A stretch of 64,000 bases of DNA, taken from positions 1,032 to 65,031 of the forward strand of contig JAFEFH010000004.1 of the NCBI GenBank assembly GCA_018240695.1, written 5' to 3'. This DNA is from Pseudomonadota bacterium (GTDB lineage Bacteria; Pseudomonadota; Alphaproteobacteria; Reyranellales; Reyranellaceae). Below are positions 125 to 20,507 of the stretch, piece after piece. Both the position numbers and the translations under genes were made by a program. Position 1 is the stretch's first letter, and each line of letters starts with the position of its first letter. The notes beneath the pieces were generated by a model. That model did not search any database and had not been told where the DNA came from. It saw only the letters and a program-made list of their open reading frames with translations.

Positions 125-723
125 CTTGGACCGAGCGGCACGTTGACCTCGCCCAGCCGTACGCTGCCGTCGGGACGCGCGTGGAAGAAATGCAGCGCAC
201 GCCAGTCGAGCTTGAGCGGGGGGCGGTCCATCATGTCCCAGCCGGTGGCCATCGCCAGCACGGCGCGGATCGCGGCCTTGTGCGAGACCGCGACGACCGG
301 CTCGCCCGCCGCGGCGATTTCCTTGGCCCAGTCGCCGATGCGGCCCATCACGGCGCGCGGCGACTCGCCGCCCGGCGGCTCGAAATCGAGCCCCTTGTTC
401 TCGGCGTCGATGAAGGCCTGTCCGACCGTCGCGCGCAGCTCGGCGATGGTACGGCCCTCCCACTGGCCGAAGCTCATCTCGCGCAGGCGCTGCTCGATCG
501 CGACGCCGCCCGCCGGCTGCAACAGCTCGGCGGTGCGGCGTGCGCGCTTCAGCGGGCTGCACAGCCGCTTCCAGCCGTCGGCGGGCGCCGGCAGCCGCCA
601 CGTGCGCGCGTCGGCTTCACCCTTGGTGCTGAGGTCGGTATCGGTGAGGCCTTGCAGGCGGCCATCCTCGTTCCACGCGGTCGAGGCATGTCGCAGCAGC
701 GCAAAGGCGACGCCGTCGCTCAT
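121..723 (-). CDS. Histidine phosphatase / phosphoglycerate-mutase family protein
   Basis: LLRHASTAWN (RHG-like), SPLKRARRTA, LREMSFGQWEG, PGGES, AVSHK motifs. Confidence 0.9.
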   Translation of the reverse strand: MSDGVAFALLRHASTAWNEDGRLQGLTDTDLSTKGEADARTWRLPAPADGWKRLCSPLKRARRTAELLQPAGGVAIEQRLREMSFGQWEGRTIAELRATVGQAFIDAENKGLDFEPPGGESPRAVMGRIGDWAKEIAAAGEPVVAVSHKAAIRAVLAMATGWDMMDRPPLKLDWRALHFFHARPDGSVRLGEVNVPLGPR

Positions 724-1838
724 CGGTGGACTCCGGGCAGCGTCTTCAGCGCGGCGCCCAGCGCATGCGCGGCGGCGCGGTCGTCATGGCGCGCGGCGAT
801 GCGGGCGGCGGTGTTGGCCGCGAGCCGCGCGCGCTCGGCCGGATCGTCGAGCAGGCGGGCGACCGCCGCAGCAAACGCCGCCGCATCGCCAATCGGCGTC
901 AGCAGGCCGGCGATACCATCGGCCACCACCGCGGGCACGCCGCCAGTGCGGCCCCCGACCACGGGTACGCCCGCCGCCTGCGCTTCGAGAAAGGCCATGC
1001 CATAGGCTTCGTTGATCGCGGGCCAGACGTAAAGGTCGGCCGACGCATACAGGGACAGCAGCTCGTCCTGGCTGACCGCGCCGGCGAAGCGGATGCGCGC
1101 GCCGAACGGCGCCATCAGCTGCTCGATCTCTGGCCGCGCTGCGCCGTCGCCCACCAGCACCGCGCGCCATTTGCGATCGCCCAGCCGATGAAAGGCGGCG
1201 GCCAGCACGCGATACGACTCGAGCTTGTCGCGCGTGCGCATCATGCCGACGGCCAGCAGCACCGGCACGTCGTTGGCGGCGCGGCGCGCCCGCGTGGCGA
1301 GATAGGGCGCGACGTCGATGAACGGCGGCAGCCAGACCTGGCGCGCCCCGGGCCGCAGGCGCGTGGCGACGCCCGCGACGTCGCGCGGATTGACGGTGAT
1401 CGCGAGGTCGGCGGCGGCGAGCGCGCGCTCGTTGGCGCGATGGCCGAGCCGCGTCTCGCCAACCGCGCGCTGCGCGGCGTGCGAGGCTTCGGCGATCACA
1501 TAGGGTACGCCCAGCGCGCGGCTGACGGCCGGGCCCAGCCAGTCGGGCTTGCGATAGTAGGAATGGTAGGTGAACCACAGATCGAAGCGCTCGGGATGGC
1601 GCGCCGGCAGCGCGCGCCAGCGTTCGACGATGCGTCCGGCCTGGCGGCGCGCGCGGCGTTCGAGATCGAGATGGGCGGCGGGATCGGGCACGCCCTGCGC
1701 CACGCGGGTATGGGCCGGCATCAGGACCGTGTGGCCGAGGCGCTTCAGCAGGCGCGCCAGGCCGCGCGCCATCTCGCGGTCGCCCGAGGGCACCGGATGA
1801 TCGGGCGGCTTCAGCGGCGTGTGCAGCAGCACGCGCAT
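720..1838 (-). CDS. Glycosyltransferase family 4
   Basis: Start reassigned to MRVLLHTPLKPPDHPVPSGDR (ATG 1838); ADLYVWPAINEAYGMAFLEAQAAGVPVV GT4 signature. Confidence 0.9.
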   Translation of the reverse strand: MRVLLHTPLKPPDHPVPSGDREMARGLARLLKRLGHTVLMPAHTRVAQGVPDPAAHLDLERRARRQAGRIVERWRALPARHPERFDLWFTYHSYYRKPDWLGPAVSRALGVPYVIAEASHAAQRAVGETRLGHRANERALAAADLAITVNPRDVAGVATRLRPGARQVWLPPFIDVAPYLATRARRAANDVPVLLAVGMMRTRDKLESYRVLAAAFHRLGDRKWRAVLVGDGAARPEIEQLMAPFGARIRFAGAVSQDELLSLYASADLYVWPAINEAYGMAFLEAQAAGVPVVGGRTGGVPAVVADGIAGLLTPIGDAAAFAAAVARLLDDPAERARLAANTAARIAARHDDRAAAHALGAALKTLPGVHR

Positions 1839-1855
1839 GGCGACGAGCCCCCCAA

Positions 1856-3148
1856 TTACTCGGCGGCGCGGGCCTCGGGTTGCTCGATCTGGGCGGCGAG
1901 GCTGGCGCCGCGCGGCTGCATCAGCGCGCGGCCGATGAAGTCGACGCCGGCCTCGTAGGAAAAGCGCGTGCGCACGATCTCGTTGGAGCGCTTGCCGAAG
2001 CGCGCGCGCAGGTCGGGATCGCGCGCCAGTTTCTCGAGCGCCGCGGCGAGCTGGTCGGGCGAGGCGGGATCGCACATCAGGCCGTTCTCGCCGTCCTTCA
2101 CGAACTCGCCGATCGCGGCCGAGCGCGTCGAGACGATCGCCATCTGCTGGTAGCCCGCCTCCTGCAACACGTTGGGCATGCCCTCGCGGTCGCCGTCGCT
2201 CGCGGTCTTGCTGGCCAGCACGAAGATGTCGGCGCGCTGGTAGGCCTCGAACACGGTCTTCTGCGGCAGCGCGCCGTGCCAGGTGCAGCGGTCGGCGATG
2301 CCGGCCTGCTCGGCCAGGTGCACGACCGAATCGCCCAGCACGCCGGCGCCGATATGCTCGAAGCGCCAGTTGAGGTCCTTCGGCAGCTTCGCAAGGGCGG
2401 CGATCAGGTCGTCATAGCCCTTCTTCGCCACGCGGCGGCCGACCGACAGGATCACCACCGGATCGTTGGGGTTCGAGCCGTCGCGGCGCGAGCGCGTCGC
2501 CGGCGGCGCCGGCAGGTTGGCGAGATCGAGGCCGTGATAGACCAGCCGCAGCCGGTCGCGGTCGCTCACCAGCTCGTCGAGGCGCGCGCGCGCGTACTGC
2601 GTGCAGGTCACGATCCAGTCGATGTCGGCGAGCTTGGTCTTCAGCTCCCATTCCTGGCTGGTCCAGATGTCCTTGGCGTGCGCCGAGGCGCTCCACGGCA
2701 GGCCGCGCATGATCGCGGCGTAGCGCGTCGCCGAAGCCGGCGTATGGATGAAGTGCGCGTACATCCGCTCGATGCCGGCCGGCATCTCGGCGGCGAGCAC
2801 GAGGCCCTGGCCGAAGCGCCTGATCCGGTTGGGCGTGCGGTCGCGCACGACGTCGTGCAGGAAGCGCGCGCGCGCGGCCTTGTAGCCCGGCAGCTTGCGC
2901 GCCTTCCACCAGGCACGGATCACGCGCATCGGATCGTTCTTGAGATACTCCGGCAGGTAGACGATCGGCGCCTTGACGCGCGCGTGCACCGGATGGATCG
3001 CGGGATCGGTCGGCAGGCGCAGCGAATAGATCACCAGCTTCAGGCCCCGCGCCTCGAGGCCCGCCATCTCCTGCGCGATGAAGGTTTCTGACAGTCGCGG
3101 CCAGCACTTGACCACGACCGCGATGCGCGCGTCATTCGACTCAACCAT
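1856..3148 (-). CDS. Glycosyltransferase family 4 (WcaL-like)
   Basis: WPRLSETFIAQEM, AHFIHTP, SVGRRVAKKG, DREGMPNVLQEA motifs. Confidence 0.9.
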   Translation of the reverse strand: MVESNDARIAVVVKCWPRLSETFIAQEMAGLEARGLKLVIYSLRLPTDPAIHPVHARVKAPIVYLPEYLKNDPMRVIRAWWKARKLPGYKAARARFLHDVVRDRTPNRIRRFGQGLVLAAEMPAGIERMYAHFIHTPASATRYAAIMRGLPWSASAHAKDIWTSQEWELKTKLADIDWIVTCTQYARARLDELVSDRDRLRLVYHGLDLANLPAPPATRSRRDGSNPNDPVVILSVGRRVAKKGYDDLIAALAKLPKDLNWRFEHIGAGVLGDSVVHLAEQAGIADRCTWHGALPQKTVFEAYQRADIFVLASKTASDGDREGMPNVLQEAGYQQMAIVSTRSAAIGEFVKDGENGLMCDPASPDQLAAALEKLARDPDLRARFGKRSNEIVRTRFSYEAGVDFIGRALMQPRGASLAAQIEQPEARAAE

Positions 3149-3169
3149 GAAACACCGATGTCTGCAGAA

Positions 3170-4450
3170 TCAGAAACTGGCCCGTGTCGCCGCGGGCTCG
3201 AGGGGAACGGCCGCGGGCGCTTCGGCCGGCGCGGGAGGATCGATCGAGGCGGGGCCGCGATTGGGATGCGCGAGACCGCGCGCGACGAGCTTGATGACGT
3301 TGGGCAGGCCGTCGAGCAGGCCGGGCACGATGACGTCGCTCGGCGCGCGCTGCTGCGGCAGCTGGCGCAGCGCGGTGGCCATGACGTGCGGATCGCGGCC
3401 CTTGTCGGCGTCGAGCATCTCCATCAGCCCGAGGTTGCGCGCGGCGCGCGCCCGGATGAGCTGCTCCATGCGCGGCCGCGTGCGCGGGATGATCAGCGCC
3501 TTCTTGTCGAACGACAGGATCTCGCAGAACGTGTTGTAGCCGCCCATCGCCACGACGCCGGCTGCGCGCTGCATCAGCGCGCCGAGATTGTTGGTGAAGG
3601 TGAGCGTGCGGATGTGCGGGAACTTCGCGGCGCGCTCCTTGAAGCTCTCGCGCGCGGCCGCCGACATGAACGGGCCGAACGCGATCACCGCGCCGTAGGG
3701 AATGTTGGGATCGCTCTCGTAAGCCGACAGCACCCAGTCGACCAGCGCGTCGCCGTCGCCGCCGCCGCCCGGCGTCACCAGGATGAACGGCCGGTCGAGC
3801 TCGTCGCCCTCGTGCGGCACGTCGGTGTGCAGCGGAAGCTCGCGGCGCAGGTAGCCGGTGTAGACGGTCTTGTGGCGGACCGACGGCGGCACGTCGATGC
3901 CCTGCAGCGGCTTGTTGATCTGCGGCAGGCCGTAGATCCAGATCTGGTCGTAGAGGTCGGCGAGCGCTGGCACGACGTTCTTGCGCTCCCACTCGACGGC
4001 GAGCTGGCCGGGATCGTCCATGACATCGCGCAGGCCCATGATCAGCGGCGTGCCGCGGTCCTTCAGCATCCGCAAGGTCGGCTCGACCTCGCCACGCAGG
4101 CCGAGCGGCTCCTTGTCGACGATGAACAGGTCGGGCCGGTAGATGTCGGCGGTGTCCTTGATGATGCGGGTGCGCATCTCCAGCGTGTGCTCGACGCCGA
4201 CCCGCAGGTTGGCGGAGTCGTACTCGCCGGTGTCGATCTGCTTGACCACGCCCGGGATGCGCACGAAGTCGATGCCGGAGCGGAATTCGTAGGAGCCGAT
4301 CACCGCCGAGCCCGAGACGATCAGGACCGAGATCGAGCTGTCGGCGCCGACGACCGCGTTGGCGATGGTCCGGCAGCGGCTGACATGGCCGAGGCCGTAG
4401 GAATCGTGGCTGTAGAGCAGCACACGCTTTGGCCGGCTGTTTGCAGGCAT
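3170..4450 (-). CDS. Glycosyltransferase, GT-B/GT28 C-terminal-like (COG4671-type)
   Basis: True start MPANSRPKRVLLYSHDSYGLGHVSR (ATG 4450) inside the long ORF 3170-6316; ILVTPGGGGDG and VAMGGYNTFCEI motifs. Confidence 0.88.
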   Translation of the reverse strand: MPANSRPKRVLLYSHDSYGLGHVSRCRTIANAVVGADSSISVLIVSGSAVIGSYEFRSGIDFVRIPGVVKQIDTGEYDSANLRVGVEHTLEMRTRIIKDTADIYRPDLFIVDKEPLGLRGEVEPTLRMLKDRGTPLIMGLRDVMDDPGQLAVEWERKNVVPALADLYDQIWIYGLPQINKPLQGIDVPPSVRHKTVYTGYLRRELPLHTDVPHEGDELDRPFILVTPGGGGDGDALVDWVLSAYESDPNIPYGAVIAFGPFMSAAARESFKERAAKFPHIRTLTFTNNLGALMQRAAGVVAMGGYNTFCEILSFDKKALIIPRTRPRMEQLIRARAARNLGLMEMLDADKGRDPHVMATALRQLPQQRAPSDVIVPGLLDGLPNVIKLVARGLAHPNRGPASIDPPAPAEAPAAVPLEPAATRASF

Positions 4451-4612
4451 CGAAAAGCCTCTCCCCCTGGCCGCGGCAGTGCCCCGGCCAGTTCTTGGCC
4501 GGACTATGCCATAAGCCGCCAGCGGCGCGAACCCCCGCTCCTGGCGTAAAATATCTAATGTAATCAATGGCATGATCGAATATAGGTAAGGTCGGTCGCG
4601 ACCCGGGTTTCG

Positions 4613-7324
4613 ATGCAGCGCAATCTTTTCACCTACATTTGGCGCCACAGCCGGCACGAGCAGCTCGTGATCCTGCTGCTCGTGGTGTTCGCGCAGGTCT
4701 TCTATTTCCTGTCGCTGAGCGTGCCGAAGTCGATCGTGAACAACGGCATCTCGGGCAATGCCTTCAAGGACAGCCCGACCGTCACCATGCTGTCGATGAC
4801 GATCCCGCTGCCCGGCTTTCTGGGCGGCAGCATCCGGCTGTTCGACGGCTTCTCGGCCGACCAGATGACCTATCTGGTGATCATGAGCTTCGTCTACCTG
4901 GGCGCGGTGATCGTGAACGCCCAGTTCAAGCGCAACATCAACACCCAGAAGGGCCGGATGGGCGAGCGCATGCTGCGCCGCCTGCGCTACGAGCTCTACG
5001 ACCGCATCCTGCGCTTCCCGGCCGCCCATTTCCGCAAGGTCAAGCAGGCCGAACTCGCGACCATGATCAAGGACGAGGTCGAGCCGCTCGGCGGCTTCAT
5101 CGGCGACGCCTACGTCCAGCCGATGTTCCTCGGCGGCCAGGCGCTGACGGCCGTCGCCTTCATCTTCATGCAGAACTGGCTGCTCAGCCTGGTGGTGATC
5201 GCGCTGCTGGCGGTGCAGATGATCATCGTGCCGCGGCTGCGCAAGCCGGTGCTGGTGCTCGGCCGCCAGCGCCAGCTCTCGGCGCGCCTGCTGGCCGGCC
5301 GCATCGCCGAGACCGCCGACGGCGTGAACGAGATCCACATCCACGGCTCGTCGAATTACGAGCGCGCCGACATCTCCGAGCGGCTGGGCCACATCTTCCG
5401 GATCCGCTTCGACCTCTACAACAAGAAGTTCGTCGCCAAGTTCTGGAACAACATCCTGTCGCAGGCGACGCCGTTCGCGATCTATCTGCTGGGCGGCTAC
5501 TTCGCGATCACCGGCAAGATGGACGTCGGCGCCGTGGTCGGCGTGCTGCTGGCCTACAAGGACCTGCCCTCGCCGATCAAGGAGCTGATCGACTGGGACC
5601 AGCAGCGCCAGGACGTGCAGATCAAGTACGAGCAGGTGATCGACCAGTTCCAGCCCGAGGGCATGATGCCCGAGGAGCTGCAGGCGATTCCCGAGGGCCC
5701 GCCGCCGCCGCTCGGCCACGAGATGGTGCTGTCGGGCATCACCGTGACCGAGGACGGCCGCGTGAAGCAGCTCGACGGCGTGTCGCTGGTCATCCCCACG
5801 GACAAGAAGATCGCCGTCATCGGCGCGTCGAGCTCGGGCAAGGACGTGCTGGGCCAGGTGATGGCGCGCATCGTCTATCCGTCGAGCGGGTCGGTGAAGA
5901 TCGACGGCAAGGACCTGCTGCAGATCCCCGAATTCCTGCTCGGTTCGCGCATGGCCTATATCGGCCAGGAGACCTACCTCTTCCCGCAAAGCGTGCGTGA
6001 CAACCTGCTGTTCGGCCTCAAGCACCGGCCGACGACGCCGGCCACCTACGAGGGCGAGCTTCAGACCGCGCGCGAGCTGTTCTGGCGCGAGGCCGAGCGC
6101 TCGGGCAACCCGGTGCTCGATCCCAACGCCGACTGGATCGACTACGAGCTGGCCGGCGCCACCGGCCCGGCCGACCTGCTGCCGTGCATGGTGCACGCGC
6201 TGAAGCAGGTCGAGCTCGACGACGACATCTATTCGCTCGGCCTGCGCGGCGCGATCGACGCGGGCAAGCGGCCCGACCTCGCCGACAAGATCCTGAAGGC
6301 GCGCCACGCGCTGCACGGCCGCTTGCAGGCGCCCGAGAACGCCGGGCTGATCGAGCCGTTCAACGCCGACAAGTACAACAAGAACCTGTCGGTGGCGGAG
6401 AACCTGCTGTTCGGCACCGCGCTCGGCGCGGCGTTCGACGGCGACAACCTCGCGGCCGATCCCTACATGCAGACGGTGCTGGCCCGCACCGGCCTCGACC
6501 AGGACCTGCTGCGCATGGGTCTGTCGATCGCCGAGACGATGGTCGAACTGTTCTCCGGCCTGTCACCCGACAACCCGCTGTTCGAGCAGTACAGCTTCAT
6601 CTCCGCCGACGAGCTGCCCAACGTCCGCCTGCTGTTGCAGCGCCTGGGCGGCAAGGGCGTCGAGGCGGTCCCGCCGGCCGACCGCGCGCGCCTGATGACC
6701 CTGCCGCTGCGCTACATCGAGGCGCGGCATCGCCTGGGCCTGATCGACGGCGCGATGGAGGACCGGCTGCTGGCCGCCCGCCGGGCGTTCGCCGAGAACC
6801 TGCCGCCGGCGCTGCGCGGCAATGTCGAATTCTACGACTTCGCCAAGTACAACAGCGCCGCCACCCTGCTGGACAACATCCTGTTCGGCCGCGTCGTCTA
6901 CGGCCAGGCGCAGGCCGAGAGCCGCATCCGCAAGCTGCTGACGGAGGTGATGGCCGAGCTGCACCTGCGCGATTCCGTGATCGAGGTCGGGCTGGAGTAC
7001 AATGTCGGCGTCGCGGGACGGCGCCTGCCGGCCACCCAGCGCCAGAAGCTCGGCATCGCGCGCGCGCTGATCAAGCGGCCGCAGTTCCTGGTGGTCAACG
7101 AGGCCGTTGCCGTGTTCGACGGGCGCACCCAGGATCGCATGCGCGACAACATCCTGGCCGCCGCCGACGGGCGCGGCGTGATGTGGATCGCCAACCGGCC
7201 GAGCCAGGCTTTGTCGTTCGACGAGGTCGTGGTCATGCAGGCGGGCAAGATCGTGGCGCACGGCGCGCCGCAGGAACTCGAGGCCAAGGGCGGGCTCTAT
7301 GCCGAGCTCATGGCGTCGACGTAG
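4613..7324 (+). CDS. ABC exporter (TMD + NBD fusion) with degenerate, insertion-split ATPase domain
   Basis: Multi-TM ABC membrane domain; Walker A-like GASSSGKD, Q-loop YIGQE, signature-like LPATQRQK, Walker B-like FLVVNE. Confidence 0.88.
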   Translation: MQRNLFTYIWRHSRHEQLVILLLVVFAQVFYFLSLSVPKSIVNNGISGNAFKDSPTVTMLSMTIPLPGFLGGSIRLFDGFSADQMTYLVIMSFVYLGAVIVNAQFKRNINTQKGRMGERMLRRLRYELYDRILRFPAAHFRKVKQAELATMIKDEVEPLGGFIGDAYVQPMFLGGQALTAVAFIFMQNWLLSLVVIALLAVQMIIVPRLRKPVLVLGRQRQLSARLLAGRIAETADGVNEIHIHGSSNYERADISERLGHIFRIRFDLYNKKFVAKFWNNILSQATPFAIYLLGGYFAITGKMDVGAVVGVLLAYKDLPSPIKELIDWDQQRQDVQIKYEQVIDQFQPEGMMPEELQAIPEGPPPPLGHEMVLSGITVTEDGRVKQLDGVSLVIPTDKKIAVIGASSSGKDVLGQVMARIVYPSSGSVKIDGKDLLQIPEFLLGSRMAYIGQETYLFPQSVRDNLLFGLKHRPTTPATYEGELQTARELFWREAERSGNPVLDPNADWIDYELAGATGPADLLPCMVHALKQVELDDDIYSLGLRGAIDAGKRPDLADKILKARHALHGRLQAPENAGLIEPFNADKYNKNLSVAENLLFGTALGAAFDGDNLAADPYMQTVLARTGLDQDLLRMGLSIAETMVELFSGLSPDNPLFEQYSFISADELPNVRLLLQRLGGKGVEAVPPADRARLMTLPLRYIEARHRLGLIDGAMEDRLLAARRAFAENLPPALRGNVEFYDFAKYNSAATLLDNILFGRVVYGQAQAESRIRKLLTEVMAELHLRDSVIEVGLEYNVGVAGRRLPATQRQKLGIARALIKRPQFLVVNEAVAVFDGRTQDRMRDNILAAADGRGVMWIANRPSQALSFDEVVVMQAGKIVAHGAPQELEAKGGLYAELMAST

Positions 7325-7345
7325 GATGGCAAACAGGAGGACACG

Positions 7346-7801
7346 ATGAACCTCAACGAGGAAGTCGAGATTCTCAAGGGCGTACCGCTCTTCGCCAAGA
7401 TGGAGGCGGCGAAGCTCAAGCTGCTGGCGTTCACCGGCGAGCGCATGACGTTCAGCACCGACCAGGAAGTCTGCCACCAGGGCGACCCCGGGGATGCCAT
7501 GTACGTCATCCTGGGCGGCGTGGCCGACGTGCTGATCGACACCCCGACCGGCCCGCTGCGCGTGGCCCAGCTGAAGAAGAACGGCTTCTTCGGCGAGACC
7601 GCCATCCTCTGCGACGCGCCGCGCAATGCCACGATCCGCGCCAGCGAATCGCTTCTGACGCTGCGCATCACCAAGGACATGTTCTATCGCCTGGTCACCG
7701 AGTTCCCGACCATGGCGATCGAGATGATGCGCGAGCTCGCGCACCGCGTCGAGGACACCAACCGCAAGCTGCGCGACGCCACGGCCAACAAGGCGGCCTG
7801 A
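7346..7801 (+). CDS. Stand-alone cyclic nucleotide-binding domain protein
   Basis: HQGDPGDAMYVILGG and FFGETAILCDAPRNAT phosphate-binding cassette; RBS GGAGG; no HTH. Confidence 0.9.
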   Translation: MNLNEEVEILKGVPLFAKMEAAKLKLLAFTGERMTFSTDQEVCHQGDPGDAMYVILGGVADVLIDTPTGPLRVAQLKKNGFFGETAILCDAPRNATIRASESLLTLRITKDMFYRLVTEFPTMAIEMMRELAHRVEDTNRKLRDATANKAA

Positions 7802-7809
7802 TCGTCCGC

Positions 7810-8298
7810 ATGAGCCGTCTCGATAGTTTCATCGCGCGCATGCAGGCGCAGCGCGACTGCCTGAATTTCCTCAAGCCCCGGATCGACGCGATCGCCGGGC
7901 CGATCCTCGAGGTCGGGCTGGGCAACGGCCGCACTTACGACCATCTGCGCGATCTCTTTCCCGCGCGCGACGTCTACGTGTTCGAGCGCAAGGTCGCGGC
8001 CCATCCCGACTGCATCCCGCCCGACGACCGGCTGTTCCTGGGCGACGCCGACAAGACCATCCCGCAGGCCGCGGCGAGGCTCGGCGCCACGGCGGCGCTG
8101 ATCCACACCGATCTCGGCACCGGCGATCACGCGGCCAATGTCGAGATGGGCAAGTGGCTGGGGCCGGCGCTCGACACGCTGGCCGCCACCGGCGGCTATG
8201 TGCTGGCCAACCAGGCGCTCAACGTGAAGCGCTGGCAGTTGCTGCCCGAGCCGCCGGGCGTCCCGAAGGACCGCTACTTCCTCTACCGCGTGACCTGA
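7810..8298 (+). CDS. Small class I SAM-dependent methyltransferase-like protein
   Basis: MSRLDSFIARMQAQR; ILEVGLGNGRTYDHLR glycine-rich motif I; embedded in ORF 6184-8298. Confidence 0.82.
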   Translation: MSRLDSFIARMQAQRDCLNFLKPRIDAIAGPILEVGLGNGRTYDHLRDLFPARDVYVFERKVAAHPDCIPPDDRLFLGDADKTIPQAAARLGATAALIHTDLGTGDHAANVEMGKWLGPALDTLAATGGYVLANQALNVKRWQLLPEPPGVPKDRYFLYRVT

Positions 8299-8316: not shown

Positions 8317-8559
8317 CTAGTGGCCGAACAGGCGGACCAGCGCCAGCAGCACGATCGCGCCCACCACCGAGCCGATGAAGCCCGCCGGACGGCCCGCGCG
8401 ATAGAGACCGAGCGCCTGGCCGCCGTACGTCGCGATCACCGAACCGACGATGCCGATCAGCACCGTGATCCAGAAGCCGTAGATGTGCGGGCCGGGCCCG
8501 ATCCAGCGCGCGACCAGGCCCACCAGGAAGCCGATCAGGATGATGCCGATGATCTGCAT
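8317..8559 (-). CDS. GlsB/YeaQ/YmgE (transglycosylase-associated) small membrane protein
   Basis: IIGIILIGFLVGLVARWI, GIVGSVIA, GFIGSVVGAIVLL pattern; RBS GGGGAGAG. Confidence 0.88.
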   Translation of the reverse strand: MQIIGIILIGFLVGLVARWIGPGPHIYGFWITVLIGIVGSVIATYGGQALGLYRAGRPAGFIGSVVGAIVLLALVRLFGH

Positions 8560-9430: not shown

Positions 9431-10387
9431 ATGGAGATAGACGGCCAGGAGAGCAGCAACATCGAGGACCGCCGCGGCGACGGCGGCGGCTTCGGCGGTG
9501 GATTCGGCGGCGGCGGGTTCGGTGGCATGGGCGGCGGCTTCGGCGGCCCCGGCATCCCGCTCCCGATGGGCGGCGGCCTGTTCAAGGGCGGCTTCGGCCT
9601 GATCGCGATCGTGGTGATCAGCCTGATCCTGGGCATCAATCCGCTGTCGCTGCTGGGCGGCATGGTCGATGGCGGCGGCGGCAGCTACGTGGCGCCGCAG
9701 AGCCAGCAGCGCACCGCCGGCCGGCCGGCGACCAACGATCCCGAGACGCAGTTCGTGGCGCGCGTGCTGAAGAGCACCGAGGACGTGTGGGGCGAGATCT
9801 TCCAGCAGATGGGCCGGCAGTACCGCCAGCCGCGGCTGGTGCTGTTCCGCAACGGCACGCAGACCGCCTGCGGTCCGGGCCAGACCGCGATGGGCCCGTT
9901 CTATTGCCCGCCCGACCAGCGGGTCTATATCGACCTGCAATTCTTCGACGAGCTGGCGCAGCGCTTCCACTCGCCCGGCCAGTTCCCGCAGGCCTATGTG
10001 ATCGCGCACGAGGTCGGGCATCACGTGCAGAACCTGTTCGGCATCTCGAACAAGGTGGCAGAGCTGCGCGAGAAAATGAGCAAGCGCGACGCCAACGCGA
10101 TGTCGGTGCGGGTCGAGCTCCAGGCCGATTGCTTCGCCGGCGTCTGGGCCTATCACGCCGACAAGCAGCGCGGCGGCACGGTCACGCTGGCCGACAAGGA
10201 CGTCGAGCAGGCGATCGCCGCCGCCACCGCGATCGGCGACGACCGGCTCCAGCAACAGGCGCAGGGCCGCATCGTGCCCGACAGCTTCACCCACGGGTCC
10301 AGCGCACAGCGGGTGCGCTGGTTCAAGACCGGTCTACAGAGTGGTGACGTGAAGCGCTGCGATACGTTCAATGCGAAGCAGCTCTGA
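9431..10387 (+). CDS. Neutral zinc metallopeptidase, YpfJ family
   Basis: GPFYCPPD, YVIAHEVGHHVQ (HExxH), VELQADCFAG, DSFTHGSS. Confidence 0.92.
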   Translation: MEIDGQESSNIEDRRGDGGGFGGGFGGGGFGGMGGGFGGPGIPLPMGGGLFKGGFGLIAIVVISLILGINPLSLLGGMVDGGGGSYVAPQSQQRTAGRPATNDPETQFVARVLKSTEDVWGEIFQQMGRQYRQPRLVLFRNGTQTACGPGQTAMGPFYCPPDQRVYIDLQFFDELAQRFHSPGQFPQAYVIAHEVGHHVQNLFGISNKVAELREKMSKRDANAMSVRVELQADCFAGVWAYHADKQRGGTVTLADKDVEQAIAAATAIGDDRLQQQAQGRIVPDSFTHGSSAQRVRWFKTGLQSGDVKRCDTFNAKQL

Positions 10388-10406
10388 GCGCGCGTCGCGC
10401 GCTCAG
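10384..10406. terminator. Perfect inverted repeat spanning both convergent stop codons; likely bidirectional terminator hairpin
   Basis: ctgagcgcgcg-t-cgcgcgctcag; no U-tract. Confidence 0.45.
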
Positions 10407-11104: not shown

Positions 11105-11156
11105 CGCTTTCTCCTTCAAGAGACCGGCTTTATGAAGGGCGCAGGAGTTCGATTCA

Positions 11157-11780: not shown

Positions 11781-11786
11781 GGCTTG

Positions 11787-12887: not shown

Positions 12888-12894
12888 GTGAAAA

Positions 12895-17252: not shown

Positions 17253-17476
17253 GGCGAAAGTATTACTCCGAACGGGGGTTCAGGCAACGCGCCAGGCGGG
17301 GGGTCAAATCCTCCCCCACTCTGCAGCAATACGCCGGAAATGCCCGGCCGGATTGCTCGGCGGCCACTTCGAGAGAACAGAGCCGGAATCACCCTCTCGG
17401 CCCCATCGGTTGACGCGCGGCCCGGCCTGTGGACTCTGTGCCGCGGGCACTTTGGGAAACAGCTTTGGCCGACGGT

Positions 17477-18313
17477 TTGAAAGTCCGCTTCTGGGGCGTG
17501 CGAGGCTCCATCTCCTGCGCGGGCCCGGAATATGTTCGTTACGGCGGCAATACGTCGTGTCTCGAAGTGACCGCGGGCGGCCGCCGGCTGATCTTCGACG
17601 CCGGCAGCGGCATCCGCACCCTGGGCCTCGACCTGGTCCGGCAGGCGCCGCTCGACCTCGACATCTATTTCACGCACACGCATCTCGACCACCTGTCGGG
17701 CCTGACGTTCTTCGCCCCGCTGTTCGACGCGCGCAATTCGGTGCGGCTGTGGGCCGGCCACCTCGAGGCGCCGCACACGCTGAAGTCGGTCGTGAACAAC
17801 CTGATGCAGGCGCCGATCTATCCGGTGACGCTCGACATCTTCCGTGCCAGCGTCGGCTTCAAGGAATTCAGGTGCGGCGACACGCTCGACTGCGGTCCCA
17901 TCACCTTGCGCACCGCGCCGCTCAACCATCCCAACGGCGCGACCGGCTACCGCATCGAGCATGGCGGCAAGTCGATCTGCTACATCACCGACACCGAGCA
18001 CCGCGACGGCGAACGCGACAAGACGATCGTCGAGCTGTGCCGCGGCGCCGACGTGATGATCTACGATTCGAGCTATACCGACGAGGAATACGAGCGCTAT
18101 CGCGGCTGGGGCCATTCGACCTGGCAGGAAGGCGTGCGGGTCGCCGACGCCGCCGGAGTCGGCACGCTCGCGATCTTCCACCACGATCCCAGCCACGACG
18201 ACGCCTTCATGGACGACGTCGCGCGCAAGGCGGCGGTGCTGCGCCCGGGCTCGGTGCCCGGCGGGCTGCCGCGTGTGATCGTGGCCCATGAAGGCCTGAC
18301 GCTCGTTCCCTGA
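17477..18313 (+). CDS. MBL-fold metallo-hydrolase (putative cyclic-nucleotide phosphodiesterase-like)
   Basis: Likely TTG start (alternative GTG 17429); KVRFWGVRGS, GGNTSC, FTHTHLDH (HxHxDH), LNHPNG, YITDTEH, WGHSTW, FHHDP. Confidence 0.88.
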   Translation: MKVRFWGVRGSISCAGPEYVRYGGNTSCLEVTAGGRRLIFDAGSGIRTLGLDLVRQAPLDLDIYFTHTHLDHLSGLTFFAPLFDARNSVRLWAGHLEAPHTLKSVVNNLMQAPIYPVTLDIFRASVGFKEFRCGDTLDCGPITLRTAPLNHPNGATGYRIEHGGKSICYITDTEHRDGERDKTIVELCRGADVMIYDSSYTDEEYERYRGWGHSTWQEGVRVADAAGVGTLAIFHHDPSHDDAFMDDVARKAAVLRPGSVPGGLPRVIVAHEGLTLVP

Positions 18314-18315
18314 TC

Positions 18316-19152
18316 ATGAGTCGTTCCCTGTCTTTGCGCGGCCGTTGGCGGCGCCTGATGCTTGGCCTGCCGACGGTGCTGGGCCTCACGCCCGGCGGCT
18401 GGTTCATCCCGCACCGCTATGCGCCGCTGCTCGCGCCTCCCGGCGCGCAGCCGCCCTATGCCGCGATCGAGGTGCTGTTCGAGGAGAAGAGCGCGGCGTT
18501 CGGCGCCATGCTCGACCTGCTCGATGGGCGCGCCGCCGAGTTCGAGGCCATGCGCGGCCTGTTCGACCAGGCCTGGTTCCCCTCGCTCGACGCCGCCATG
18601 GCCTACACGCTGGTGCGCGAGCGCAAGCCGCTGCGCATCGTCGAGATCGGCTCCGGCCATTCCACTCGCGTGCTGGCCAAGGCCTCGGCCGGCGTCGCCG
18701 AGATCCTGGCGATCGACCCCGCGCCCCGCGCCGACATCGCGGGCCTGCCGGGCGTCACCATCGTGCCGTCGACCCTCCAGGCCGCCCCGACCGACCTGTT
18801 CGATCGCCTGCAAGGCGGCGACCTGCTGTTCATCGATTCCAGCCATATCCTGATGCCGGGCAGCGACGTCGACTATCTGCTGAACCGCGTGCTGCCGCGC
18901 CTGCCGGCGCGCACGCTGGTCCACATCCACGACATCTACCTGCCGTTCGACTATCCCGCGATGTGGGGCTGGCGGAACTACAACGAGCAGCAGGGCGTGC
19001 TGCCGCTGCTGACCACCGGCGCCTACACGCCGCTGTTCTCGAGCGTGTGGGCGGAGCGGCGCCTCGGCGACCGCCTCGCGCGGTCGGTCGTGCCCCGCCT
19101 GCCGCGCCCGGCCGACGCGCTGGCCGCCAGTCTCTGGCTCGAGAAGCGCTGA
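18316..19152 (+). CDS. Class I SAM-dependent methyltransferase (Methyltransf_24-like)
   Basis: RIVEIGSGHST, LFIDSSH, HIHDIYLPFDYP, YNEQ motifs. Confidence 0.82.
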   Translation: MSRSLSLRGRWRRLMLGLPTVLGLTPGGWFIPHRYAPLLAPPGAQPPYAAIEVLFEEKSAAFGAMLDLLDGRAAEFEAMRGLFDQAWFPSLDAAMAYTLVRERKPLRIVEIGSGHSTRVLAKASAGVAEILAIDPAPRADIAGLPGVTIVPSTLQAAPTDLFDRLQGGDLLFIDSSHILMPGSDVDYLLNRVLPRLPARTLVHIHDIYLPFDYPAMWGWRNYNEQQGVLPLLTTGAYTPLFSSVWAERRLGDRLARSVVPRLPRPADALAASLWLEKR

Positions 19153-20507
19153 TGTTCGCGGCGCTCCGCGGCTGGTTGTTCGACAGCGGCGGCGCCGACA
19201 AGCTTCCCGAGCGCGTGCGCGAGGCGATCCGCCTCCAGCAGGAGCGCAGCGAGATCCTGATCGCCTGGATCCAGCTCGCCATCGTGGCGCTGGTCACCAC
19301 GGTCTACGAGACCAGCGCCATGCCCGAGGGCGTGGTGCAGTACGACTTCGCGTTCGAGACGCAGGTCTTCGCCACCTACGGCGTGTTCTGCGTGATCCGC
19401 CTGTTCCTCGCGTGGCGGCGCCTGCTGCGGCCGTGGATGCTCTATGTGTCCGTCGTGGCCGACATGGCGCTGCTGATGGGGTTGATCTTCTCGTTTCCGC
19501 TGAAATACGCCCAGCCGGCGGCTTTCTATCTGAAGGTGCCGACCCTTCTCTATGTCTTCCTGTTCATCGCGCTGCGGGCGCTGCGCTTCGAGGCGCGCTT
19601 CGTCGTCTTCACCGGCCTCGTCGCCGTCGCCGGCTGGATCGGCCTGGTGCTCTACGTCGAAAGCGGCAAGGGCGGCCCGCTCGACGTCCGCACCGACGAC
19701 TTCGTCGAGTACATGACCTCGAACTCCCTGCTGATCCACGCCGAGGTCGACAAGATCATCGCCATCCTGCTCACCACCGCGGTACTGGCCATCGCCATCG
19801 CGCGGGCGCGGCATCTGCTGGTTCGCGCGGTGAGCGAAGGGGCGGCGGCGCGCGACCTCTCGCGCTTCTTCGATCCCGACGTCGCCGACCGCATCCGTTC
19901 GGCGCATGTCTCGGTGAAGGCCGGCGAAGGCGAGCTGCGCGACGCCACGATCCTGACCGTCGACCTGCGCGGCTTCACGCGCCTCTCGGTCGAGCTGGCG
20001 CCGGCCGACGTGATGAAGCTGTTGCAGGACTATCAGGGCAGGGTCTGCCCCTTGATCGTCGCGAACGGCGGCAACATCGACAAGTTCCTGGGCGACGGCA
20101 TCCTGGCCTCCTTCGGCGCGGTCACTCCCTCATCGACCGCCGCCGCCGATGCGATGCGCGCAGCCGATGCCATCCTCGCCGCCACGGCGGTGTGGGCGGC
20201 GGAACGGCAAGCCGCCGGCCTCGCCCCGCTCGCGGTAGGCCTGGCGTTGACGGCCGGCCGGGTCGTGTTCGGCGCGGTGGGCGACGGCGAGCGGCTTGAA
20301 TTCACCGTGATCGGCGACGCCGTGAACCTCGCGGCCAAGCTCGAGAAGCACAACAAGGAAGAGAAGACGCAGGGCCTGACCGATGCCGCGACCTATGCCC
20401 TCGCCGAGCGCCAGGGCTATCGGGCCCCTCGGCCGCACGAGCACCGCGCGGGACGCGTCGTCGGCGGCGTGCCGGATTTGGTCGATATTGTGGTTTTAGG
20501 GACCTGA
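19152..20507 (+). CDS. Membrane-anchored class III adenylate/guanylate cyclase
   Basis: TGATG coupling; several TM helices; TVDLRGFT, DKFLGDG, FTVIGDAVNLAAKLE. Confidence 0.9.
   Translation: MFAALRGWLFDSGGADKLPERVREAIRLQQERSEILIAWIQLAIVALVTTVYETSAMPEGVVQYDFAFETQVFATYGVFCVIRLFLAWRRLLRPWMLYVSVVADMALLMGLIFSFPLKYAQPAAFYLKVPTLLYVFLFIALRALRFEARFVVFTGLVAVAGWIGLVLYVESGKGGPLDVRTDDFVEYMTSNSLLIHAEVDKIIAILLTTAVLAIAIARARHLLVRAVSEGAAARDLSRFFDPDVADRIRSAHVSVKAGEGELRDATILTVDLRGFTRLSVELAPADVMKLLQDYQGRVCPLIVANGGNIDKFLGDGILASFGAVTPSSTAAADAMRAADAILAATAVWAAERQAAGLAPLAVGLALTAGRVVFGAVGDGERLEFTVIGDAVNLAAKLEKHNKEEKTQGLTDAATYALAERQGYRAPRPHEHRAGRVVGGVPDLVDIVVLGT

What the first reader, a model, noticed from the sequence alone, without database searches (positions are those of the whole stretch)
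5760..7324. ABC ATPase that looks catalytically dead and carries a ~300-aa insertion with a triplicated motif
Seen: Walker A GASSSGKD (D in place of S/T), signature LPATQ (not LSGGQ), Walker B FLVVNE (Asn for Asp) and H-loop IANR (Asn for His). The post-Q-loop motif (S/T)xxxNxLFG occurs three times: SVRDNLLFG (~5990), SVAENLLFG (~6389), TLLDNILFG (~6862). Knowledge: these residues are needed for Mg-ATP hydrolysis. Inference: a regulatory or pseudo-ATPase half-transporter needing an active partner, or a ligand-gated sensor; the insert may dock the cNMP protein.
Basis: partly seen in the sequence, partly recalled or inferred. Interest (0 to 1): 0.66.

Follow-up and report, generated by a model that had tools for sequence, protein, structure and literature searches.

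The report
ATPase-degenerate ABC exporter, cNMP-binding partner
This gene encodes a membrane ABC exporter whose ATP-hydrolysis residues are replaced, whose motor domain holds three tandem copies of its helical subdomain, and which is always encoded beside or fused to a cyclic-nucleotide-binding protein; I infer it is a widespread, unstudied membrane effector of cyclic-nucleotide signalling.

Summary
ORF 4613-7324 (+, 903 aa) is an MsbA-like half ABC exporter. It has Walker A GASSSGKD, signature LPATQ, Walker B FLVVNE and H-loop IANR, and three (S/T)xxxNxLFG motifs at the stated positions.

The roughly 290-aa "insert" is two extra tandem copies of the NBD's own helical subdomain, running from the Q-loop to the signature helix. 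Profile-profile probabilities are 94-98.6%, well above shuffled controls. AlphaFold pLDDT is about 91, and no PDB structure matches the module.

The gene is not decaying. It belongs to a large family, named mainly from Alphaproteobacteria:
- 958 clusters at 50% identity.
- More than 4000 clusters at 90% identity.

Across 84 diverse members, insert residues are nearly invariant while catalytic residues are among the most variable. Walker A Lys is present in 38%, and only 1 of 84 is fully canonical. Within the Reyranellaceae clade the odd site (GK[D/E], NE) is fixed.

A single-domain cNMP-binding gene follows the ABC gene in essentially every locus, or is fused to its C-terminus. Nearby genes are glycosyltransferases (as here) or nucleotide cyclases plus an MBL-fold hydrolase.

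No canonical partner is seen, and the pattern of degenerate motifs argues against one.

Best reading: a cNMP-controlled, hydrolysis-independent ABC-fold membrane effector. The function is inferred, not shown.

The parts
4613..7324 (+). 903-aa half-size type IV (MsbA/ABCB-like) ABC exporter with a degenerate NBD and a triplicated helical subdomain
   Evidence: ORF. Pfam ABC_membrane at aa 19-311 plus a partial ABC_tran match. AF2 model pLDDT 91.7, pTM 0.88. Foldseek hits to MsbA, TmrAB and PCAT1.
4667..5647 (+). Transmembrane domain, aa ~19-345. It has six long helices and a small periplasmic beta-hairpin insert between TM1 and TM2. It is the best-conserved region of the family.
   Evidence: Secondary structure of the model. 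Mean column entropy is 1.9 bits, against 2.2-2.7 bits in the NBD parts.
5822..5845 (+). Walker A GASSSGKD, with Asp where Ser/Thr is canonical
   Evidence: G404, S408, G409 and K410 are invariant and residue 411 is D or E in 116 Reyranellaceae clusters. Lys is present in only 32 of 84 family-wide.
5957..5971 (+). Q-loop YIGQE, with the Gln retained here
   Evidence: Gln is present in 93% of the close clade but in only 7 of 84 family-wide.
5990..6337 (+). Helical-subdomain unit 1 (aa 460-575). It starts with SVRDNLLFG and ends with a signature-helix-like 'RPDLADKILKARHAL' containing R564.
   Evidence: hhalign of U1 vs U3 gives 96.2% and aligns KARHAL with IARAL. Shuffle control. R564 is present in 83 of 84.
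6338..6811 (+). Helical-subdomain unit 2 (aa 576-733). It has a Q-loop-like 'IEPFNADKYN', then SVAENLLFG, and ends with 'LLAARRAF' containing R723.
   Evidence: hhalign of U2 vs U3 gives 98.6%. N597 is invariant, F600 and G601 are at least 99% conserved (Tyr counted with Phe at 600), R707 is present in 80 of 84 and R723 in 83 of 84.
6812..7078 (+). Helical-subdomain unit 3 (aa 734-822). It has 'VEFYDFAKYN', then TLLDNILFG, then the degenerate signature LPATQ (nt 7025-7039) and 'IARAL' containing R817.
   Evidence: N755 is present in 83 of 84. G759 and R817 are invariant.
7085..7120 (+). Walker B FLVVNE (Asn for Asp, catalytic Glu kept) and D-loop AVFD
   Evidence: N829 and E830 are invariant in the close clade. 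Family-wide, position 829 is N in 48 of 84 and D in 24 of 84, and position 830 is E in 24 of 84.
7187..7198 (+). H-loop IANR, with Asn for the catalytic His
   Evidence: Position 861 is N or S in the close clade. It is the most variable motif position family-wide at 3.45 bits.
7346..7801 (+). 151-aa stand-alone cyclic-nucleotide-binding (CNB) protein. It starts 21 nt after the ABC stop codon and has an AGGAGG ribosome-binding site.
   Evidence: Pfam cNMP_binding, E = 1.5e-16. The closest PDB sequences are CNB domains of PKG and PKA regulatory subunits and of MloK1 and SthK. In the phosphate-binding cassette, G83, R93 and A95 are invariant in 75 of 75 partners. The gene is adjacent or fused in essentially all loci. 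Spacer sequence.
7810..8298 (+). 162-aa SAM-dependent methyltransferase (Methyltransf_17), third gene of the operon. Its ATG lies 8 nt after the CNB stop codon.
   Evidence: Pfam E = 8e-58. Start codon. PDB 3iht, an uncharacterised structure. It co-occurs with the ABC gene in the glycosyltransferase-containing clade down to about 39% ABC identity.
3170..4450 (-). 426-aa divergently transcribed GT-B glycosyltransferase (GT28-C-like, MJ1255/VC2487-like)
   Evidence: It is conserved upstream of the ABC gene in the clade whose CNB partner is about 49% or more identical to the window's, and in the TARA relative of P0145.
1856..3148 (-). 430-aa GT4 glycosyltransferase
   Evidence: Pfam Glycos_transf_1. 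Syntenic in related loci.
720..1840 (-). Second GT4 glycosyltransferase. The likely start is ATG 1838; the listed ORF start at 2075 overlaps the previous gene.
17429..18313 (+). MBL-fold hydrolase and possible cNMP phosphodiesterase. It is 54-55% identical to the gene that sits next to the ABC-CNB pair in another clade of the family.
18345..20507 (+). Class III adenylate/guanylate cyclase (start codon uncertain) and candidate source of the cNMP signal
   Evidence: Pfam Guanylate_cyc at aa 533-684. tblastn matches to cyclases that flank the ABC-CNB pair in other loci.

Best explanation
SHOWN:
- The gene encodes a half-size type IV (MsbA/ABCB-like) ABC exporter.
- Its nucleotide-binding domain carries non-canonical residues at four positions needed for Mg-ATP hydrolysis: Walker A S/T to D, Walker B D to N, H-loop H to N, and signature LSGGQ to LPATQ.
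- The domain contains three tandem copies of its own alpha-helical subdomain, each running from a Q-loop-like strand to a signature-type helix. This explains the three (S/T)xxxNxLFG helices. Each unit also keeps the Arg of the 'ARAL' helix (R564, R723, R817).
- The protein belongs to a large, old family that carries only generic names in the databases I searched. Named members are mainly Alphaproteobacteria.
- In this family the membrane domain and the extra helical units are conserved while the catalytic residues drift.
- The gene is always followed by, or fused to, a single-domain cyclic-nucleotide-binding protein with an intact phosphate-binding cassette.

INFERRED:
- The protein works as a homodimeric membrane effector of cAMP/cGMP signalling.
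- Binding of cNMP to the CNB partner, rather than ATP hydrolysis, controls how the two enlarged NBD modules associate. Through the conserved coupling helices this sets the state of the transmembrane pathway.
- In the Reyranellaceae clade the invariant GK[D/E], Q, NE and D residues suggest that a nucleotide is still bound as a non-hydrolysed structural ligand, as in degenerate sites of CFTR and TM287/288.
- In this genome the controlled process is most likely export or flipping of a glycoconjugate, or control of its synthesis. The product would be made by the three divergently transcribed glycosyltransferases and perhaps modified by the co-operonic methyltransferase.
- The cyclase and MBL-fold hydrolase about 10 kb downstream are candidate source and sink of the signal.
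For: - Motifs and insertion.
- Triplication: hhalign 94-98.6%, with a shuffle control of 46-86 vs at most 21. The secondary-structure pattern is periodic and pLDDT exceeds 90 across the insert.
- Not decay: more than 120 clusters at 77-93% identity, all about 903-906 aa. There are 958 representatives at E <= 1e-30, and the best 150 cover the insert region, most of them in one stretch. There are 4041 clusters at E <= 1e-30.
- Catalytic residues unconstrained family-wide, insert constrained. K410 is present in 32 of 84, Q452 in 7, D829 in 24, E830 in 24, and His at 861 in a small minority. By contrast N597, G759 and R817 are present in 84 of 84, and R564, R723 and G601 in 83 of 84. Only 1 of 84 is fully canonical. 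Canonical-like members are scattered in the tree.
- In-clade fixation of the non-canonical site.
- The CNB partner is adjacent in essentially every locus with downstream sequence. Fusions are ABC-CNB and ABC-CNB-GGDEF. The phosphate-binding cassette is invariant.
- Signalling context: cyclases in at least 8 of 15 loci and an MBL-fold hydrolase in 12 of 15 loci of one clade. Homologues of both lie in the window.
- Glycosyltransferase and methyltransferase context in this clade.
- No second ABC gene in the window.
Against: - No biochemical data exist. ATP binding, ATP hydrolysis, cNMP binding and contact between the ABC and CNB proteins are all untested.
- In this clade K410, Q452, E830 and D836 are conserved, so slow or unconventional hydrolysis cannot be excluded.
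I cannot say where the extra units sit or whether they touch the coupling helices, the dimer interface or the CNB protein.
- CNB domains can bind other ligands. HetC's domain binds ppGpp (PMC10986499).
- The glycosyltransferase association holds only for part of the family, so the transported or controlled substrate is a guess.
- A canonical partner encoded elsewhere in the genome was not searched genome-wide.
Confidence: 0.45

Rival explanations
1. It is still an ATP-driven exporter with unusual catalytic chemistry. The P-loop Asp/Glu would coordinate Mg2+ in place of Ser/Thr, and Asn would replace the Walker B Asp. The CNB partner and the extra helical units would act only as regulators of an active pump.
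For: - In 116 Reyranellaceae clusters K410, N829 and E830 are invariant, residue 411 is always D or E, Q452 is present in 93% and D836 in 99%. A site with no function would drift.
- Family members with fully or nearly canonical motifs (P0269, P0175, P0168, P0195) also carry the insert. For P0269 and P0175 an adjacent CNB gene was confirmed.
- The insert and the CNB partner are therefore compatible with an active ATPase.
Against: - Four separate positions, each individually important for hydrolysis, are changed together. Their importance is established knowledge: Walker B Asp, H-loop His, the signature Ser-Gly-Gly and the Walker A Ser/Thr.
- Family-wide these positions are nearly free to vary, and Walker A Lys is lost in 62% of representatives.
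- There is no significant co-variation between an acidic residue at 411 and Asn at 829. Asn is present in 9 of 12 sequences with an acidic 411 and in 7 of 11 with Ser/Thr, among sequences that keep the Lys (read).
Confidence: 0.2
2. It is not a conduit at all. It is a membrane-anchored regulatory scaffold or receptor built on an ABC fold, in the manner of SUR or FtsEX. It would relay cNMP status to the glycosyltransferases or other partners, or sequester the CNB protein at the membrane.
For: - Loss of the energy-coupling residues.
- Neighbouring 'output' genes vary: glycosyltransferases in one clade, cyclases, GGDEF proteins and an MBL-fold hydrolase in another.
- Some members are fused to (apparently degenerate) GGDEF domains.
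Against: - The transmembrane domain is the most conserved part of the protein, with many invariant polar or charged residues. That fits a conserved translocation pathway, although it would also fit a conserved interaction surface.
- The full six-helix exporter architecture is retained with high model confidence.
Confidence: 0.2
3. The protein is the degenerate half of a heterodimer and depends on a canonical ABC half-transporter encoded elsewhere.
For: - Heterodimeric exporters with one degenerate site are common (PMC7756269).
- Only 64 kb of this genome, and flanks of at most about 8 kb in relatives, were inspected.
Against: - There is no other ABC gene or LSGGQ/Walker A match in the window.
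- No ABC gene appears among the conserved neighbours in more than 150 related loci.
- In known heterodimers the deviations of the degenerate site are split between the two chains, so one composite site stays canonical (PMC7756269). Here Walker A, Walker B, the H-loop and the signature are all degenerate in one chain. That would impair both sites of any dimer.
- Many family members lack even the Walker A Lys.
Confidence: 0.08
4. The gene is a decaying pseudogene or an assembly artefact.
For: None beyond the unusual motifs.
Against: - The ORF is intact at 903 aa.
- Hundreds of full-length orthologues at 77-93% identity have the same length and motifs.
- Family members at 30-50% identity keep the insert.
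- The AF2 model is very confident.
Confidence: 0.01

Closest known systems
MsbA / ABCB-type homodimeric half-transporters (type IV ABC exporters; TIGR02203, PDB 7ph3, 9bd6)
   Same: The domain order is the same: a six-helix ABC_membrane TMD followed by an NBD. MsbA is the best NCBIfam hit (184 bits) and gives the best Foldseek superpositions (TMt 0.62).
   Different: The score is far below the family cut-off (184 vs 602). The catalytic motifs are non-canonical. About 290 extra residues form two additional helical subdomains. There is an obligatory CNB partner. No lipid A context is present.
Heterodimeric exporters with one degenerate ATP site (TM287/288, TmrAB, BmrCD, TAP1/2; review PMC7756269)
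   Same: Substitutions occur in Walker B, the H-loop and the signature. In this clade Walker A Lys is retained, which is compatible with stable, non-hydrolytic nucleotide binding.
   Different: Those are two-gene or two-half systems in which one composite site stays canonical. Here there is one gene, all motifs of the same chain are degenerate, and many relatives have also lost the ATP-binding Lys.
CFTR (ABCC7) and SUR (ABCC8/9)
   Same: An ABC exporter fold is re-used as a gated channel or a regulatory subunit. A degenerate site is present. The protein is under cAMP-pathway control. The repeated motif here is the counterpart of CFTR 'TIKENIIFG', the helix carrying F508 that docks a TMD coupling helix (my knowledge of the CFTR sequence and structure).
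   Different: CFTR and SUR are full-length eukaryotic ABCC proteins with one competent site. Their cAMP control is indirect, through PKA phosphorylation of the R domain. They have no duplicated helical subdomain. This is an analogy in how it may work, not family membership.
HetC / NHLM-type PCAT exporters with an N-terminal CNB domain (PMC10986499; TIGR03796/03797; TIGR03896 for the accessory CNB protein)
   Same: An ABC exporter is physically coupled to a cNMP_binding-fold domain that is needed for function.
   Different: In HetC the CNB domain is N-terminal and binds ppGpp, the ATPase catalytic residue is essential, and a C39 peptidase domain is present. Here the CNB domain is a separate or C-terminal unit with a canonical phosphate-binding cassette, the ATPase is degenerate, and there is no peptidase. 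Scores are far below cut-offs.
SMC / Rad50 / UvrA-type ABC ATPases
   Same: A large insertion lies between the Walker A/Q-loop half and the signature/Walker B half of the ABC domain. Relative P0269 gives a weak SMC_N Pfam hit for that reason.
   Different: Their insertions are coiled coils or DNA/UvrB-binding modules in soluble, catalytically active proteins. Here the insertion is made of repeats of the helical subdomain in a membrane protein. Foldseek hits to MukB are not significant.
Cyclic-nucleotide-gated prokaryotic channels (MloK1, SthK) and second-messenger-gated polysaccharide secretion (PelD-PelF-PelG, BcsA, Alg44)
   Same: A CNB or second-messenger receptor module controls a membrane pathway. 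GT4 glycosyltransferases lie next to the membrane component. The CNB partner resembles the MloK1 and SthK CNB domains.
   Different: The membrane folds are unrelated (a K+ channel and a synthase, against an ABC exporter fold here). The Pel, Bcs and Alg systems use c-di-GMP, not cAMP or cGMP.

Membership tests
Type IV ABC exporter (ABCB/MsbA-like half-transporter) | Six-helix ABC_membrane transmembrane domain N-terminal to the NBD | tested here: met
   Pfam PF00664, E = 3e-17, aa 19-311. The AF2 model has six long helices. Foldseek hits MsbA, TmrAB and PCAT1.
Type IV ABC exporter (ABCB/MsbA-like half-transporter) | NBD with a RecA-like core and one helical subdomain | tested here: inconclusive
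   The core is present and aligns to ABCB1 and ABCB4 on both sides of the insert. However, the helical subdomain is present three times.
Type IV ABC exporter (ABCB/MsbA-like half-transporter) | Canonical catalytic motifs: Walker A GxxGxGK[ST], LSGGQ, hhhhDE, H-loop His | tested here: not met
   The protein has GASSSGKD, LPATQ, FLVVNE and IANR. Only the Walker A Lys, the Q-loop Gln, the catalytic Glu and the D-loop Asp are kept.
Type IV ABC exporter (ABCB/MsbA-like half-transporter) | ATP-hydrolysis-driven substrate export | not testable with these tools
   This needs an ATPase or transport assay.
MsbA equivalog (TIGR02203) or other named NCBIfam exporters | Score above the curated cut-off | tested here: not met
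   The best hit scores 184 bits against a cut-off of 602. All 25 listed families are far below their cut-offs.
Heterodimeric ABC exporter with one degenerate site | A second, different half-transporter gene, usually adjacent | tested here: not met
   There is no other ABC gene in the 64-kb window, and none appears among the conserved neighbours of related loci. Whole genomes were not searched.
Heterodimeric ABC exporter with one degenerate site | Degeneracy split between chains so that one composite site remains canonical | tested here: not met
   Walker A, Walker B, the H-loop and the signature of the same chain are all non-canonical. The definition is from PMC7756269.
cNMP_binding (CNB) domain proteins (for the 151-aa partner) | PF00027 beta-barrel with a phosphate-binding cassette, G-E...R-[ST/N]-A | tested here: met
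   Pfam scores 60.5 bits against a cut-off of 27.5. The cassette reads FGETAILCDAPRNAT. G83, R93 and A95 are invariant in 75 of 75 partners.
cNMP_binding (CNB) domain proteins (for the 151-aa partner) | Binds cAMP or cGMP | not testable with these tools
   This needs ITC or a thermal-shift assay. HetC's CNB domain binds ppGpp instead.
SMC/Rad50/UvrA-type split ABC ATPases | The insertion between the Q-loop and the signature is a coiled coil or a DNA/UvrB-binding module, in a soluble protein | tested here: not met
   The insertion site is equivalent. However, the insert is homologous to the helical subdomain, shows no significant structural match to SMC or MukB, and the protein has a TMD.
PCAT/NHLM exporters with a CNB domain (HetC-like) | N-terminal CNB and/or C39 peptidase domain, with an essential canonical ATPase | tested here: not met
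   There is no N-terminal extension or peptidase domain. TIGR03796 scores 152 against a cut-off of 853, and TIGR03797 scores 136 against 709.

The most novel reading that the evidence does not exclude
A cyclic nucleotide, not ATP, is the operating ligand of this ABC-exporter-fold machine. The CNB partner and the triplicated helical module would have taken over the job of the ATP switch. They would close or open the NBD-like dimer and so gate a transmembrane pathway for a glycoconjugate or another solute. This would be the first ABC-transporter-derived, second-messenger-gated conduit. It would define a new, widespread class of bacterial cAMP/cGMP effectors. The family's canonical-motif members (such as P0269) would be living intermediates between an ATP-driven and a cNMP-driven mechanism.
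Probability: 0.25. Interest if true: 0.85.

Novelty: new variant of a known kind. Interest (0 to 1): 0.72.

Why it matters
ABC transporters are defined by an ATP-hydrolysing cassette. This is a large natural family (thousands of sequence clusters, with cultured members in Reyranella, Enhydrobacter, Azospirillum, Thalassobaculum and Inquilinus) with three unusual properties:
- The cassette's catalytic residues are dispensable.
- The membrane domain is kept.
- A new module has appeared, made from two extra copies of the helical subdomain.

The module is the part that carries the CFTR-F508-type coupling helix contact.

The strict pairing with a cNMP-binding protein, plus nearby cyclases, points to a previously unrecognised output of bacterial cAMP/cGMP signalling at the membrane. 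In many genomes this output is linked to glycosyltransferases.

The family would make several questions directly testable:
- What an ABC fold can do without ATP turnover.
- How helical-subdomain surfaces are re-used.
- How degenerate sites evolve. The family spans fully canonical to fully degenerate sites.

All database names for these proteins are generic ('ABC transporter ATP-binding protein', 'multidrug transporter') and are probably misleading.

Tried and rejected
- Self-BLASTP of the protein found no internal repeat. The repeat is visible only at profile level.
- phmmer of unit 2 alone against the PDB found nothing.
- Foldseek of the isolated helical module (aa 445-822) against the PDB gave no match better than E = 0.2. 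It therefore neither confirmed the helical-subdomain origin independently nor suggested another fold.
- Foldseek of the full model returned only ordinary ABC exporters that do not cover the insert.
It was repeated with a 15-sequence alignment.
- My single genome-contig scan used one protein and so returned only Reyranellaceae.
- Charge-swap idea: I considered that Walker A Asp and Walker B Asn co-vary to keep Mg2+ binding. Asn829 is about as frequent with Ser/Thr at 411 (7 of 11) as with Asp/Glu (9 of 12), so there is no support.
- Soluble NBD-only relatives: the 520-570-aa representatives are N-terminally truncated gene calls.
- Expression evidence: only DNA metagenome runs hold the sequence.
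- Four literature searches found nothing on this family.
- PDB sequence search for the GT28-like protein found nothing. For the methyltransferase it found only an uncharacterised structural-genomics entry. The product of the gene cluster therefore stays unknown.
- Pseudogene and artefact readings are rejected on conservation.

Full report
**What is there.** The finding lies in a 903-aa ORF, window 4613..7324 on the + strand.
- Pfam finds an ABC_membrane domain at aa 19-311. It finds only the first 85 of 137 positions of ABC_tran, at aa 387-483.
- NCBIfam places the protein nearest MsbA and other type IV exporters. All scores are far below family cut-offs (MsbA 184 vs 602). Every alignment breaks at about aa 470 and resumes at about aa 750-795. 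The PDB sequence search behaves the same way.
- [ST]xxxNxLFG occurs exactly three times, at aa 460, 593 and 751.
- The HMMER alignments to ABCB4 and ABCB1 put these motifs opposite GSSGCGKS, LSGGQ, LLLDEATSALD and IAHR.

**What the insert is.** Self-BLAST shows nothing. I cut an 84-sequence family alignment (A1) into three blocks: U1 (aa 441-575), U2 (576-733) and U3 (734-822).
- Profile-profile comparison gives U1~U3 96.2% (E = 2e-9), U2~U3 98.6% (E = 1.4e-15) and U1~U2 94% (E = 1.4e-7).
- Column-shuffled controls never exceed a score of 21, against observed scores of 46-86.
- The U1~U3 alignment runs from the strand and Q-loop region, through the xxxNxLFG helix and a 'hLxxVxLxxxhxxxGL' element, to the signature helix. 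It pairs 'RPDLADKILKARHAL' with 'LPATQRQKLGIARAL'.
- Each unit keeps the same landmarks: N464/N597/N755, G468/G601/G759 and R564/R723/R817.
- The roughly 290-aa insertion is therefore two extra tandem copies of the NBD's own alpha-helical subdomain.
- From my knowledge of CFTR, the repeated motif corresponds to 'TIKENIIFG'. That is the helix carrying F508, which docks a TMD coupling helix. This is a lead about what the copies might bind, not a result.
- AlphaFold2 with A1 gives a very confident full-length model, with pLDDT 91.7, pTM 0.88 and the insert above 90. The strand-helix-helix pattern is periodic. The helical module alone gives pLDDT 91.2.
- Foldseek matches the full model to MsbA, TmrAB and PCAT1 over about 575 residues, with none covering the insert. 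It finds nothing significant for the module alone.

**Not decay: a large family.**
- The protein database holds more than 120 clusters at 77-93% identity. All are about 903-906 aa and are named Reyranella, Enhydrobacter or Reyranellaceae.
- 201 species-level genomes encode a close relative.
- An exhaustive search of 1.84 billion representatives finds 958 with E <= 1e-30. The best 150 match at 30-79% identity (about 30-50% for the full-length members), most of them across the insert in one stretch.
- A profile search finds 4041 clusters. Cultured members include Azospirillum, Thalassobaculum and Inquilinus. All names are generic.
- No NCBIfam or Pfam model is specific for the family, and four literature searches found nothing on it.

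**Which residues are constrained.** Across 84 full-length representatives, conservation follows this pattern:

| Position | Conservation across 84 representatives |
|---|---|
| N597, G759, R817 | invariant |
| R564, R723, G601, N755 | 83 of 84 |
| G636 | 82 of 84 |
| R707 | 80 of 84 |
| Walker A Lys (410) | 32 of 84 |
| Canonical Ser/Thr after the Lys (411) | 19 of 84 are Ser; Asp (22) is the commonest residue |
| Q-loop Gln (452) | 7 of 84 |
| Walker B Asp (829) | 24 of 84 (Asn in 48) |
| Catalytic Glu (830) | 24 of 84 |
| H-loop position (861) | most variable motif column, 3.45 bits |

- The catalytic positions are among the most variable in the protein.
- Only one representative, P0269, has every canonical motif.
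- The TMD is the most conserved region, with a mean of 1.9 bits against 2.2-2.7 bits in the NBD parts.
- A crude NJ tree built without the motif columns shows two clades that lack the Lys altogether. Canonical-like members (P0269 and P0175, P0195, P0168, P0130 and P0152) are scattered among degenerate ones. This implies repeated loss.
- P0269 and P0175 also have the insert and an adjacent CNB gene. The insert and the CNB partner therefore appear older than the loss of catalytic residues.
- Within the window's own clade of 116 clusters the odd site is frozen. G404, S408, G409, K410, N829, E830 and R862 are invariant. Residue 411 is D or E. Q452 is present in 93% and D836 in 99%. Only about a quarter of columns in these regions are invariant.
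- My reading is that hydrolysis is very probably lost, while some phosphate or nucleotide ligand is probably still bound in this clade.

**The partner and the neighbourhood.**
- Downstream genes. A 151-aa single-domain cNMP_binding protein begins 21 nt after the ABC stop codon, behind an AGGAGG site (7346-7801). A Methyltransf_17 gene follows 8 nt later (7810-8298).
- Upstream genes. Three genes are transcribed divergently: a GT28-C-like glycosyltransferase and two GT4 glycosyltransferases.
- CNB adjacency. In 80 Reyranellaceae loci and 85 further loci, with ABC identity from 28 to 89%, the CNB gene lies immediately downstream wherever sequence is available.
- CNB fusions. In several lineages the CNB domain is fused to the C-terminus of the ABC protein. 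It is sometimes followed by a GGDEF domain. On the NJ tree such fusions arose at least three times.
- CNB ligand site. The partners' phosphate-binding cassette is intact, with G83, R93 and A95 present in 75 of 75. The closest solved relatives are CNB domains of PKG, PKA-R, MloK1 and SthK.
- Glycosyltransferase clade. The glycosyltransferases and the methyltransferase accompany the pair in the window's clade, in relatives whose CNB partner is about 49% or more identical, and in a TARA marine relative at 39%.
- Cyclase clade. Another clade lacks the glycosyltransferases.
  - It has an MBL-fold hydrolase divergently upstream in 12 of 15 loci.
  - It has class III nucleotide cyclases nearby in at least 8 of 15 loci.
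- Same genes in this window.
  - The window holds a homologue of that hydrolase, 54-55% identical, at 17429-18313.
  - A class III cyclase follows directly at 18345-20507, about 10 kb downstream of the ABC operon.
  - The hydrolase weakly resembles a cyclic-nucleotide-degrading phosphodiesterase model, scoring 51 bits against a cut-off of 400.

**How it most likely works.**
- Shown:
  - The motifs are degenerate.
  - The helical subdomain is triplicated.
  - Constraint lies on the TMD and the insert but not on the catalytic residues.
  - The protein is obligatorily coupled to a CNB protein.
- Inferred:
  - The protein is a homodimeric, hydrolysis-independent effector. cNMP binding to the CNB partner governs association of the enlarged NBD modules and hence the state of the TMD.
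  - In this clade a nucleotide may act as a structural ligand.
  - In this genome the output is export, flipping or control of a glycoconjugate made by the adjacent glycosyltransferases.
- I put this at about 0.45.
- Rivals:
  - An active pump with unusual chemistry (0.2). In-clade conservation favours it. The four substitutions and the family-wide drift argue against it.
  - A non-transporting scaffold or receptor (0.2).
No ABC paralogue lies in the window or among the conserved neighbours. All motifs of one chain are degenerate, which would cripple both composite sites. In known heterodimers the deviations are shared between chains and one site stays canonical (PMC7756269).
  - A pseudogene (0.01).

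**Comparison with known systems.**
- By fold, the protein is a type IV ABC exporter. It fails the catalytic-motif criteria and every curated family cut-off.
- It resembles degenerate-site heterodimers, CFTR and SUR in having non-hydrolytic sites and a regulatory use of the fold.
- It resembles HetC-type exporters in being coupled to a CNB domain. In HetC that domain is N-terminal, binds ppGpp, and works with an essential ATPase (PMC10986499).
- It resembles SMC, Rad50 and UvrA only in the position of the insertion.
- I found no described system that combines a triplicated helical subdomain, family-wide loss of catalytic residues and an obligatory CNB partner.
- I rate it a new variant of a known kind.

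**Limits.**
- There are no experimental data.
- There are no model coordinates and no multimer prediction.
- The tree is crude and midpoint-rooted.
- Neighbourhoods were examined only within 10 kb or less in relatives.
- Whole genomes were not screened for a partner.
- The substrate is unknown.

Noticed in passing
window 17429-18313 (+) and 18345-20507 (+): An MBL-fold hydrolase is followed directly by a class III adenylate/guanylate cyclase. The hydrolase is 54-55% identical to the one that sits right next to the ABC-CNB pair in another clade of the family. It weakly resembles a cyclic-nucleotide phosphodiesterase model. The two genes are a possible source and sink of the cNMP signal for the operon 10 kb away.
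   Followed up: partly
P0191 (1206 aa) and P0202 (1156 aa), relatives: These relatives are ABC-CNB-GGDEF triple fusions. Read by eye, the GGDEF motif is degenerate ('DLCRF', 'AYGDF'). That suggests a receptor or dimerisation role rather than diguanylate cyclase activity.
   Followed up: partly
L158 (metagenome locus), 2405-6969 and 10161-14389: The ABC-CNB pair of a glycosyltransferase-less clade is surrounded by a PAS-GGDEF protein, two nucleotide cyclases (one with a 2Fe-2S domain), an MBL-fold hydrolase and a DUF898 membrane protein. This is a dense second-messenger neighbourhood.
   Followed up: partly
L082 (locus of P0269): P0269 is the only family representative with fully canonical ATPase motifs. 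It still has the triplicated subdomain and a CNB gene, followed by a HAMP-cyclase. It may be an ancestral-like, ATP-active form useful as an experimental comparator.
   Followed up: partly
window 7346-7801 vs partners in other loci: The window's CNB protein has PRNAT in its phosphate-binding cassette, whereas most partners have PRTAT. The Thr/Asn difference might bear on cAMP versus cGMP preference.
   Followed up: no
window 4613-4860 (aa ~47-83 of the ABC protein): The AF2 model shows a small four-stranded beta element in the periplasmic loop between TM1 and TM2. This loop is absent or shorter in many relatives, and total N-terminal lengths differ.
   Followed up: no
window 3170-6316 (-), 6184-8298 (+) and other long ORFs: Very long antisense or out-of-frame ORFs (for example 1048 aa on the minus strand across the ABC gene) are artefacts of about 68% G+C. 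The real GT28-like gene is 3170-4450, and the methyltransferase starts at 7810, not 7795.
   Followed up: yes
window 8317-8559 (-), 8573-~9370 (-), 9431-10387 (+), 11157-11780 (+), 11787-12887 (-): Ordinary housekeeping neighbours lie here: a transglycosylase-associated (GlsB/YeaQ-like) small membrane protein, an exonuclease III-like gene (read from the translation), a YpfJ-type zinc metallopeptidase, a YkuD L,D-transpeptidase and HrcA. None is conserved with the ABC gene outside Reyranellaceae.
   Followed up: partly
L005/L055, L018/L067, L032/L061: Three MAGs each carry two different copies of the ABC gene on separate contigs, about 77-86% identical to the window protein. These could be true paralogues or mixed-strain bins. 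If they are paralogues, heterodimers between two degenerate chains would be possible.
   Followed up: no
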